Below are positions 57,001 to 59,865 of a stretch of DNA of 64,000 nt, one piece after another (the first letter of the stretch is position 1; every line of letters begins with the position of its first letter). The stretch comes from Raja brachyura. Lineage: Eukaryota. The position numbers are program-made. The DNA lies in contig OY740811.1 in assembly GCA_963514005.1 (NCBI GenBank), forward strand, positions 14,384,001-14,448,000, given 5' to 3'.

Positions 57001-59865
57001 ATGAGCGGTGATCTGATTAAAACACACAAGGATATAAGGGGATAGACACAAAATGCTGGAGTAACTCAGCGGGACAGACAGCATCTCTGGAGAGAAGGAA
57101 TGGGTGACGTTTCGGGATGAGACCCTCTATCAGTAAGCATGGGACACAGTTTCCAAATAAAAGGTTACACTTTTAAAGCAGTGAAGTAGAGGAATTTCTT
57201 GTCTCGATGGGCCGTGACTCTTTGGAATTCTGTACCCCAGAAAAGACAGAGACATTAAGTGTAAAATATATGATAAATCAGAAGGGGGAGTAGAAGTGTC
57301 AGTGATTAATGATGAAATTACTTCATTATTGAGCGAGGATAATGAGTTGAAAGAAGGTTGCGGAAATCCTTTCTAATTACATGCATTTTTATGCAGATTT
57401 TGAAACGTTTGCAGCAAGTTCTTATTAAAGTCATGTCTATTAGGAAACCAGACGAGGGACTGCCTGGTTCAATTCTCTCCAGGACAGGTCTATTTCCTCT
57501 GTGCCAATCATACACATAATGGCATCATCCATATAGATTCTTGTAACAACTTCAATTGATGTACTCAAGTGCAACTTCAGTTTTTCATTCATAATCCAAT
57601 GTTCCTTTAGTGCATCAATTTCTAAGCCTTCAAGATACCTTTAAGGAGGTAGTTACATTTCTAAAAGTAGAAAACATCAAGGATAAGGAAAGAGAACAAG
57701 AATATAGCATTGGGAATGATGATAATCGTGATTCTATTGATGGGCCAAATGACCTGCTCCTATGTTCTGTGCTTAGATGTGACAGTGTTGGGAATAAAAC
57801 CCTATCTCCACTGCCACCTCCACTGAGGTTATTTTTATTGCTTCATTAGTGAGAGCGACATTTATTGTCCACTTACAACTGCCTTCAATCACATCAATGT
57901 GCCCGTAGTTACATTCAGATCAGATAACTAAAAGAAACATGTTTAGGAAGGAACTGCGGATGCCGCTTTACAGCATAGACACAAAATAAAGATTGTCTTC
58001 CTTTAAGGTAAAGCAGATTGGGGTTTTAGACAATACAATTGCTTCACCGTTACTGCCGTTACTAGCCAGATTAACTATTTTAAAATATTACTGAGTTTGA
58101 AGCAACCAAAGAAGGATTTGCCCATCCAACAATTTCTGTGTGCGTGAGATAATCAAGTGGGTTTTACAAAAGGCCACAAAGTGCTGGAGTAACTCAGTGG
58201 GTCAGACAGTATCTCTGGAGAACAAGGATATATGACATTTCGGGCCCAGACCTTTCCTTTGTGTATTAACCAGCATCTGCGGTTCTTTGTTTCTGCATCT
58301 GGACTTTACAATAGCTTGGACGTGCCATGGTTAATTTGTTTCATACCAATTGTATTGATTTATATGAATTTAAAGCCCAATGGCAGGATTCGAACCCGCT
58401 GCAGTTCTATGTTTCTGCACCTGGGTTTTACAATTATTTGGTGGCGTAAGGGTCACAACGATAATAATTACAGTTGTTTCATACCTATTGTATTTATTTG
58501 TCATAATTTAAAGTTCGCAGTGGCGGGATTCGAACCCGTGGCTCCATGAGATCGCCCGGCCGCCACCCAGCGGCTGTGGGAAGGTGGGTGTGAGGGAGCA
58601 TGCGCTTACCTACCCACCTTCACTCCCACCTGATAGGGCGGCGGCTGGGGGGGAGGGGGGGCGATGGGCCGCCGAGCGAGCGGCGCGCTTTGCAATTGGC
58701 CAGACGAGTTGAGTGCATTAAGTGATAGGGTGGCGGGGATGCAGCAACTGGCATCCGATTGGCCACTGGGTGAGCGATCGGAACGATTTATAATTGGCCA
58801 GGAGCTGCAGACTTGGTCTGATAGGATGGCGGTGGGCGTGCGGCTTGCCGGCTGGCATCCCATTGGTTGCTATGCGAGCTGCGCGGTTTGTGATTGGCCG
58901 AGGGAGGGGTGGAGGCGGGTCGGAGTGGTGCGCGCACCGGCCGGCGGGGCAAGGGGCGGTTGGAGTGGGGGGGAAGGGGAGCTGATCGGGGCGGTTGGAG
59001 TGGGGGGAGGGGGATCTGATGGGGGCGGGGCGAGGCGAGGGGCGGTTGGCGTGGGGGGGGGAGGGGGAGCTGATGGGGGCGGTTGGAGTTGGGGCGGGGC
59101 GAGCTGATGGGGGCGGGGCGAGGGGCGGTTGGCGTGGGGGGGGGGAGGGGGAGCTGATGGGGGCGGTTGGAGTTGGGGCGGGGCGATATGATGGGGGCGG
59201 GGCGAGGGGCGGTTGGCGTGGGGGGGGGGAGGGGGAGCTGATGGGGGCGGTTGGAGTTGGGGCGGGGCGAGCTGATGGGGGCGGGGTGAGCTGGGGGAGG
59301 GGAGGAGCACCAGGCGGCGGGAGGGCGGTTTGGGTTTGTTTTGTAGTCACCGGGCGGGCGGCGGGCATCGTGCTCGGTCTCTCTGGCCGCTCGCCTCGCA
59401 TCACCATCCTATAGTGACTCACCCCGTCCCAGCCAGCCAGCCGTCCGAGCGCCAGCAGCCATGACATCCCGGAGGTAAGGCAGCCCCCCCTCCCTCCCTC
59501 CCTCCGCGGTACCACCCGGTAAAGGTCTCGACCCGAAACGTCCCCATTCCTTCTCTCCAGAGATGCTGCCTGTCCCGTGGAATTACTCCAGCATTTTGTG
59601 CCTATCCTCGTCATAAAACGCAAGATACACGAAACTATCTATCCAAACTATTTATTTGTGTCTTTCTCCGGTTGGTGGCCGGCGCCTGCTTCCAGCAGCA
59701 CCTGACGGCGGCACCACCTTGAGCCCTCGGTGCCCTCTCAGCGACCGTGCCCCTTACCCTCAACTCTGGGTGACCCTGGATTTCACTGTACCTCGGTACA
59801 TGTGACGAATAAAGTACAATGCCATCCCCTCCCTCCCTCCCCATGCGACCTCAACCACTGCAGGT

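What the first reader, a model, noticed from the sequence alone, without database searches (positions are those of the whole stretch)
59340..59480. SHP-2-family gene directly downstream of agrin, likely the SHP-2-like paralogue lost in some mammals
A 14-nt coding exon, MTSR(R), with a phase-2 donor is the PTPN11 exon-1 signature. Canonical human PTPN11 is not linked to AGRN. From memory, a second SHP-2-like gene (ptpn11b in fish) lies next to agrin, and only a PTPN11-like pseudogene remains at this position in human. If so, this is an intact promoter and first exon of an ancient paralogue in a cartilaginous fish.
Basis: partly seen in the sequence, partly recalled or inferred. Interest (0 to 1): 0.65.

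Follow-up and report, generated by a model that had tools for sequence, protein, structure and literature searches.

The report
Likely SHP-2-like first exon beside agrin
A tiny start exon reading M-T-S-R, as at the start of the SHP-2 phosphatase, sits at the edge of a CpG island 12.9 kb after the end of the agrin gene; it is probably the first exon of the second SHP-2-like gene (PTPN11B), an ordinary and already named gene, but the rest of the gene lies outside the window.

Summary
ATG ACA TCC CGG AG|GTAAGG lies at 59461-59476 (+). Unspliced it stops after five codons. The pattern is unique in the window, with about 0.004 expected by chance. It follows 170 nt of unique, ATG-free sequence at the 3' edge of the only CpG island seen near it. 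Agrin is confirmed: its C-terminal exons run along the + strand and its stop codon is at 46585-46587, 12,873 nt upstream.

The SHP-2 reading rests on 14 bases. They give the first four residues of SHP-2 and match 13 of 14 bases of a published human PTPN11 forward primer. Exon 2 (WFH) is not in the window, so no SH2 or phosphatase domain could be seen.

HGNC has named a human unitary pseudogene PTPN11BP, so a PTPN11B gene is recognised in other species. I found no text placing it beside agrin. The cartilaginous-fish origin was not tested.

Verdict: probably the promoter and first exon of a PTPN11B-type gene (confidence about 0.6). It belongs to a known kind and is of low interest.

The parts
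58400..59800 (.). CpG island, the presumed promoter region
   Evidence: In 200-nt bins GC is 0.48-0.77 and CpG observed/expected is 0.72-1.19, against 0.44 for both GC and CpG o/e over the whole window. The 1-kb profile shows no other bin above 0.52 GC.
58674..58901 (+). About 100-nt tandem unit (roughly 2.3 copies) carrying ATTGG(CC) motifs, which are inverted CCAAT boxes
   Evidence: Direct-repeat families D3 (3 copies, spacing 98 and 100) and D6 (2 copies, spacing 104). Four of the window's 13 ATTGGCC sites fall at 58695-58899. Reading them as NF-Y/CCAAT sites is inference.
58943..59290 (+). G-rich minisatellite, 84-nt unit x 4.1, full of GGGGCGGGG (GC-box-like) motifs
   Evidence: Tandem Repeats Finder gives score 535 and 90% matches. 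Family D1/D2.
59291..59460 (+). Unique, ATG-free, GC-rich stretch, the presumed 5' UTR. The transcription start is not mapped.
   Evidence: No ATG between 59275 and 59461 on the + strand, and no self-repeat hits over 59320-59519.
59461..59474 (+). Coding part of the presumed exon 1: ATG ACA TCC CGG AG, giving M-T-S-R plus two bases of codon 5
   Evidence: There is a G at -3 of the ATG. 13 of 14 bases match the start of the human PTPN11 forward primer printed in PMC9744210 (compared by eye).
59475..59480 (+). Splice donor GTAAGG. Context GAG|GTAAGG matches 7 of 9 positions of the textbook MAG|GTRAGT consensus.
   Evidence: It is the only GTRAG within or at the end of this mini-ORF. Use of the donor is inferred; there is no RNA evidence.
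59520..59615 (+). Copy of the window's commonest interspersed repeat, 45 nt into the presumed intron 1
   Evidence: 26-29 self-BLAST hits per position.
46327..46587 (+). Open frame holding the last coding exon of agrin (end of LG3) and its TGA stop at 46585-46587
   Evidence: All 5 of 5 PDB matches are agrin. The alignment runs to the last residue of 1pz8_A (201 of 201) and 1q56_A (195 of 195), and to 2067 of 2068 in 8s9p_A. Stop codon confirmed.
42894..43145 (+). Agrin LG3 exon
   Evidence: PDB match to 8s9p_A residues 1904-1982 at E 3.5e-53, plus four further agrin LG3 chains at E 1.8e-32 to 5.3e-36. Pfam Laminin_G_1 at 2.5e-15.
2258..23230 (+). Earlier agrin exons. Open frames: 2258-2683 (LG end plus EGF), 5560-5859 (EGF), 12208-12348, 14527-14745, 15593-15811 and 19901-20146 (LG2), 17537-17548 (KSRK microexon), 22937-23230 (EGF).
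   Evidence: Pfam EGF or Laminin_G hits for 9 of the 10 open frames submitted; 12208-12348 gave none. Microexon found.

Best explanation
The CpG island at about 58.4-59.8 kb is the promoter of a gene on the + strand. Its first exon ends with 14 coding bases (M-T-S-R plus AG) and is spliced from the donor at 59475 to an exon beyond the window's end. The gene is a member of the SHP family of SH2-domain tyrosine phosphatases. Because it lies next to agrin rather than in the usual PTPN11 neighbourhood, it is most likely the orthologue of PTPN11B (zebrafish ptpn11b/Shp2b, human unitary pseudogene PTPN11BP).

Shown: the exon-like anatomy, the CpG island and the linkage to agrin.
Inferred: use of the donor, the SH2 and phosphatase body of the gene, and the orthology.
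For: Exon and promoter anatomy:
- The mini-ORF with a good donor is unique in the window and far from chance (1 site, 0 of 100 shuffles; 0.0037 expected).
- It cannot code unless spliced, because TAA follows at once.
- It is the first ATG after 170 nt of unique, ATG-free sequence at the 3' side of a CpG island.

Match to the SHP family:
- Human SHP-2 starts MTSRRWFHP. The first 14 bases of its cloning primer differ from the window at one synonymous base (PMC9744210, passage read).
- A very short, promoter-specific N-terminus joined to a common body is a family habit. SHP-1 forms I and II differ only in MLSRG versus MVR and come from two promoters (PMC6164089, passage read). M-T-S-R is one residue from M-L-S-R.

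PTPN11B:
- HGNC names PTPN11BP a unitary pseudogene, a class it says is named after functional orthologues in other species (PMC12807706).
- Zebrafish Shp2b is only 64% like human SHP-2, against 91% for Shp2a (PMC3988099). That fits an old split.

Neighbourhood:
- Agrin's last exon and stop lie 12,873 nt upstream on the same strand.
- Ten open frames sampled from the flanks gave no Pfam family.
Against: - Only four residues and two bases are in view. No SH2 or phosphatase sequence is in the window: exon 2 is absent (0 sites; no W[FY]H in a + frame after 59476).
- There is no RNA evidence for the transcription start or the splice.
- Much of the island is minisatellite, so its CCAAT-like and GC-box-like motifs may be by-products of the repeats.
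- That human PTPN11 exon 1 ends after base 14 is recalled, not checked. My search for it listed nothing usable.
- No paper in the library links agrn and ptpn11b (0 papers).
- The two zebrafish papers I read attribute ptpn11b to the teleost genome duplication. If that were right, a non-teleost would have no orthologue.
- The negative for genes between agrin and the island is weak. I sent to Pfam 7 of the 71 open frames of 55 aa or more lying wholly in 46588-58400, plus one of 53 aa, and 2 of the 29 starting after 59476. Short exons would be missed.
Confidence: 0.6

Rival explanations
1. The island drives some other, non-SH2 gene or a non-coding RNA. The ATG at 59461 is then a five-codon upstream ORF or a meaningless ATG in a non-coding first exon, and the likeness to SHP-2 is coincidence.
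For: Unspliced, the frame is a five-codon ORF ending in TAA, which is what a uORF looks like. The match to SHP-2 is only four residues. No exon 2 was seen.
Against: The exact combination M-T-S-R plus AG plus a donor is expected 0.0037 times in the window. It falls at the spot where a first exon would be expected. 13 of 14 bases match the human primer.
Confidence: 0.2
2. It is the canonical ptpn11 (SHP-2) of this species, which happens to lie next to agrin in this lineage, and not a second paralogue.
For: The four residues and 13 of 14 bases match canonical human PTPN11 itself. Nothing in the window distinguishes paralogues.
Against: From established knowledge, not tested here: human PTPN11 and AGRN are on different chromosomes. 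A separate PTPN11B lineage is recognised by HGNC.
Confidence: 0.08
3. It is not a promoter or an exon at all. The region is a GC-rich minisatellite block that scores as a CpG island, with a chance ATG and GT beside it.
For: 58674-58901 and 58943-59290 are tandem repeats. ARAGORN and Rfam find nothing here. No transcript data exist.
Against: CpG observed/expected stays at 0.72-0.92 in the unique part from 59200 to 59799 as well. Chance expectation for the motif inside the island is 3e-5.
Confidence: 0.07

Closest known systems
PTPN11 / SHP-2 (human), first coding exon
   Same: The protein starts M-T-S-R-R. The first 14 coding bases differ at one synonymous position (PMC9744210 passage). The split fifth codon AG|N can give R, as in SHP-2.
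   Different: The genomic neighbourhood: agrin here, whereas human PTPN11 is elsewhere (established knowledge, not tested). The 14-base length of the human exon's coding part is recalled, not verified. Only the first exon is in view here.
PTPN11B: zebrafish ptpn11b/Shp2b and the human unitary pseudogene PTPN11BP
   Same: A second SHP-2-like gene that exists outside mammals and is dead in human. That is what a SHP-2-like start at a non-PTPN11 locus would be.
   Different: No sequence of Shp2b was available, because the alignment is in Fig. S1 of PMC3988099, a supplement I could not open. No text places ptpn11b or PTPN11BP beside agrin. Orthology is therefore inferred.
PTPN6 / SHP-1 alternative first exons (form I MLSRG, form II MVR)
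   Same: A handful of N-terminal residues is encoded by a promoter-specific first exon joined to the common body (PMC6164089 passage). M-L-S-R differs from M-T-S-R at one residue.
   Different: The fifth residue of form I is G. The window's AG|N cannot encode G, so the start is more SHP-2-like than SHP-1-like.
Agrin (AGRN), C-terminal LG-EGF region, the upstream neighbour
   Same: The domain order is LG end, EGF, EGF, LG, EGF, LG. The PDB matches are to agrin chains and run up to the chain ends. The 12-nt KSRK microexon is present.
   Different: Nothing unusual was noted. The z-site microexons were not found with my loose patterns.

Membership tests
SHP family (PTPN6/PTPN11-type SH2-domain tyrosine phosphatases) | Two tandem SH2 domains followed by a PTP catalytic domain | not testable with these tools
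   All of this would be encoded beyond base 64000. Only window.fa is on hand.
SHP family (PTPN6/PTPN11-type SH2-domain tyrosine phosphatases) | N-terminus M-T-S-R-R (SHP-2) or a near variant, directly ahead of W-F-H | tested here: inconclusive
   M-T-S-R plus AG is present and matches the printed human SHP-2 start. The W-F-H part is not in the window.
SHP family (PTPN6/PTPN11-type SH2-domain tyrosine phosphatases) | A very short first coding exon whose donor splits the codon before W-F-H | tested here: inconclusive
   The window has a 14-base coding part and a phase-2 donor. For SHP-1, alternative N-termini from two promoters are in print. The exact human PTPN11 boundary is recalled only, and the search did not settle it.
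PTPN11B orthologue group (ptpn11b / PTPN11BP) | Groups with ptpn11b rather than PTPN11 or PTPN6 in a protein tree | not testable with these tools
   No protein body is in the window.
PTPN11B orthologue group (ptpn11b / PTPN11BP) | Conserved position next to agrin in other vertebrates | not testable with these tools
   Linkage to agrin in this window is shown. For other species there are 0 papers with both 'agrn' and 'ptpn11b'. The human position is recalled only.
CpG-island promoter | GC above 0.5 and CpG observed/expected above 0.6 over more than 200 nt, at the 5' end of a gene | tested here: met
   From 58600 to 59799, GC is 0.56-0.77 and o/e is 0.72-1.19. The transcription start itself is not testable here.
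Agrin | C-terminal LG/EGF array with best matches to agrin, ending at the agrin C-terminus | tested here: met
   Pfam hits for 9 of 10 open frames. The top 5 of 19 PDB matches and 5 of 5 are agrin, aligned to the chain ends.

The most novel reading that the evidence does not exclude
If the window is from a non-teleost such as a cartilaginous fish and this exon belongs to an intact PTPN11B, then the PTPN11/PTPN11B split predates the teleost genome duplication. It is probably a product of the early vertebrate duplications. Jawed vertebrates would then have begun with three SHP-type phosphatases, one of them linked to agrin and later lost in the human lineage. This would correct the zebrafish literature, which treats ptpn11b as a teleost duplicate.
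Probability: 0.5. Interest if true: 0.35.

Novelty: already known. Interest (0 to 1): 0.2.

Why it matters
It matters little beyond annotation. The locus would add a non-teleost anchor for PTPN11B. That would help date the SHP-2 gene duplication and would show that ptpn11b is not simply a teleost-specific copy, as the zebrafish papers assume. HGNC's naming of PTPN11BP as a unitary pseudogene already implies this.

Tried and rejected
- Exon 2 in the window: the pattern AG-N-TGG-TTY-CAY has 0 sites. The six W[FY]H hits in all frames are either upstream of the exon or on the minus strand.
- Another gene between agrin and the island, or in the 4.5 kb after the exon: ten open frames sent to Pfam gave no family at E up to 0.01. 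This was a small sample of the 114 open frames of 55 aa or more ending after 46588. By eye, three of them look like reverse-transcriptase tails of transposons.
- A minus-strand first exon from the same island: the listed ATGs show no convincing ATG-plus-donor candidate. One GTRAG, at 58609, follows an 85-codon frame of no evident meaning. I did not pursue this.
- tRNA or other RNA genes: ARAGORN found 0 and Rfam at gathering threshold found 0.
- Literature on linkage and origin: 20 papers hold 'ptpn11b' (19 listed), and none is about its evolutionary origin by title. 'agrn' plus 'ptpn11b' gave 0 papers. 'PTPN11' plus 'unitary pseudogene' gave only the HGNC paper.
- A recalled lead on the human locus: I recalled that a human transcript named RP11-465B22.3 beside AGRN might be the pseudogene. 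One paper shows that a single variant is associated with expression of HES4, C1orf159 and RP11-465B22.3, which suggests they are neighbours (PMC8739564). Another paper treats it as a lncRNA and mentions neither PTPN11 nor AGRN (PMC12081793). This leaves the lead unconfirmed, and I give it no weight.
- The human PTPN11 exon 1/2 boundary in print: the search (345 papers, 15 listed) gave nothing usable.
- Taxon: a search for the core of the abundant repeat found 0 papers.
- Morpholino or primer sequences that might reveal the Shp2b start: none is in the main text of PMC3988099.

Full report
**What is there**

At 59461-59476 on the + strand the window reads ATG ACA TCC CGG AG|GT AAGG. This gives 14 coding bases, M-T-S-R plus two bases of a fifth codon, and then a donor in the context GAG|GTAAGG. 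That context matches 7 of 9 positions of the textbook MAG|GTRAGT consensus. Without splicing the frame reads M-T-S-R-R and stops at TAA (59476-59478), so it can start a protein only if the donor is used.

The pattern ATGACNTCNCGNAGGT occurs once in the window on both strands and in none of 100 shuffles. Allowing every codon for M-T-S-R, the expected number is 0.0037 for the window and 3e-5 for the GC-rich island.

**Setting**

- The exon sits at the 3' side of the only strongly GC-rich region of the window. From 58600 to 59799, GC is 0.56-0.77 and CpG observed/expected is 0.72-1.19, against 0.44 for both over the whole window.
- Much of this island is tandem repeat. A unit of about 100 nt (about 2.3 copies, 58674-58901) carries ATTGG(CC) motifs; four of the window's 13 ATTGGCC sites lie here.
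- An 84-nt G-rich unit follows (4.1 copies, 58943-59290).
- Then come 170 nt of unique sequence with no ATG (the last one is at 59275), ending at the ATG of the finding, which has a G at -3.
- The exon is not inside an interspersed repeat. A copy of the window's commonest repeat starts at 59520, 45 nt into the presumed intron.

This anatomy is that of a TATA-less CpG-island promoter with a short first exon. The transcription start and the use of the donor are inferred.

**The neighbour**

Agrin is real and lies on the same strand. I searched exon-bearing open frames one at a time and built no joined, spliced model.

- Of the ten open frames sent to Pfam, nine gave EGF or Laminin G hits. They fall in the order LG end plus EGF, EGF, LG, EGF, LG.
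- The frame 42894-43145 matches agrin chains in the PDB. Its best match is 8s9p_A residues 1904-1982 at E 3.5e-53, and the top five of 19 matches are agrin.
- The frame 46327-46584 matches only agrin (5 of 5). Its alignments run to the last residue of 1pz8_A and 1q56_A and to residue 2067 of 2068 in 8s9p_A.
- The TGA stop follows at 46585-46587. The ATG of the finding is 12,873 nt further on.

Between agrin and the island I saw only what look like transposon relics. The ten open frames I sent to Pfam gave nothing. That was 7 of the 71 frames of 55 aa or more lying wholly in 46588-58400, one of 53 aa, and 2 of the 29 starting after 59476. Small exons of another gene could have been missed.

**Is it a SHP-2-type gene?**

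The whole case rests on 14 bases.

For it:
- The human SHP-2 construct printed in PMC9744210 begins MTSRRWFHP. The first 14 bases of its forward primer differ from the window at a single synonymous position (passage read; compared by eye).
- The family is known for very short, promoter-specific N-termini. SHP-1 forms I and II differ only in MLSRG versus MVR and come from two promoters (PMC6164089, passage read).
- The window's fifth codon, AG|N, can give R as in SHP-2 but not G as in SHP-1 form I.

Against it:
- Exon 2 is not in the window. There is no AG-N-TGG-TTY-CAY site and no W[FY]H in a + frame after 59476. No SH2 or phosphatase sequence could be examined, and only window.fa is available.
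A literature search did not settle it.

A rough weighing: few proteins start M-T-S-R, and fewer still have a phase-2 intron after base 14, so the family assignment is several times more likely than coincidence. It is still not proven.

**Which paralogue?**

[quoted passage not shown] It describes that class as named after functional orthologues in other species (PMC12807706, passage read).
- Zebrafish Shp2b is 64% like human SHP-2, against 91% for Shp2a (PMC3988099, passage read). That fits an old split.
- The zebrafish papers nevertheless ascribe the pair to the teleost duplication.
- I found no text that places ptpn11b or PTPN11BP beside agrin. No paper holds both 'agrn' and 'ptpn11b', and the 19 listed 'ptpn11b' papers are not about its origin by title.
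- My own recollection that a transcribed pseudogene lies just after human AGRN could not be tied to PTPN11BP, so I give it no weight.

The orthology is therefore an inference from position: a SHP-2-like start at a locus that is not the usual PTPN11 neighbourhood.

**What stayed unchecked**

- The taxon. 'Cartilaginous fish' was not tested. The agrin exons are clearly diverged from the PDB agrin chains (alignments), so I do not take the window for human, and no human contig was met.
- The window holds no N.
No relatives could be fetched, and the exon is too short for such searches anyway.
- Fig. S1 of PMC3988099, which aligns Shp2a and Shp2b with human SHP-2 and would show the Shp2b N-terminus, is a supplement and could not be opened.

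**Verdict**

The most likely reading is the promoter and first coding exon of a PTPN11B-type SHP phosphatase gene downstream of agrin (about 0.6).

Rivals:
- A non-SH2 gene or non-coding RNA with a coincidental five-codon uORF: 0.2.
- Canonical ptpn11 relocated next to agrin: 0.08.
- An orphan GC-rich minisatellite: 0.07.

A PTPN11B gene is already recognised in nomenclature, so this is a known kind of gene. Interest is low. Its one modest value is as a non-teleost data point against the 'teleost duplicate' view of ptpn11b.

Noticed in passing
window 17537-17548 (+): A 12-nt microexon encoding K-S-R-K, flanked by ...ttcag and gtaacg. It lies between the agrin LG2 exons and fits the agrin 'y' splice insert (the name is recalled). 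Found.
   Followed up: partly
window 28800-28890 (+): An open frame with AFNGRTFIEY, probably the first exon of agrin LG3. The z-site microexons expected between here and 42894 were not found with loose patterns.
   Followed up: partly
window 58277-58540 (+): Two direct repeats of about 140 nt. Each ends in a motif (GG[AC]GGGATTCGAACCCG) that is the reverse complement of a tRNA T-arm-like sequence (families D4, D5, D8). ARAGORN and Rfam call no tRNA. These may be heads of tRNA-derived SINEs on the minus strand.
   Followed up: partly
window 58674-59290: The CpG island is largely built of two minisatellites, with units of about 100 nt and 84 nt. The apparent cluster of CCAAT-like and GC-box-like motifs comes from repeat copies.
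   Followed up: yes
window-wide, e.g. 59520-59615: A short interspersed repeat (core GGTCTCGACCCGAAAC...) gives 26-29 self-hits. About 29% of the window is similar to another part of it. A literature search for the core found 0 papers.
   Followed up: partly
window 49163-49399 (-), 53900-54225 (+), 56458-56793 (-): Open frames that look by eye like reverse-transcriptase tails of retrotransposons, lying between agrin and the island. None had a Pfam hit at E up to 0.01.
   Followed up: partly
window 59868-59905: A perfect (CT)19 microsatellite in the presumed intron 1.
   Followed up: no
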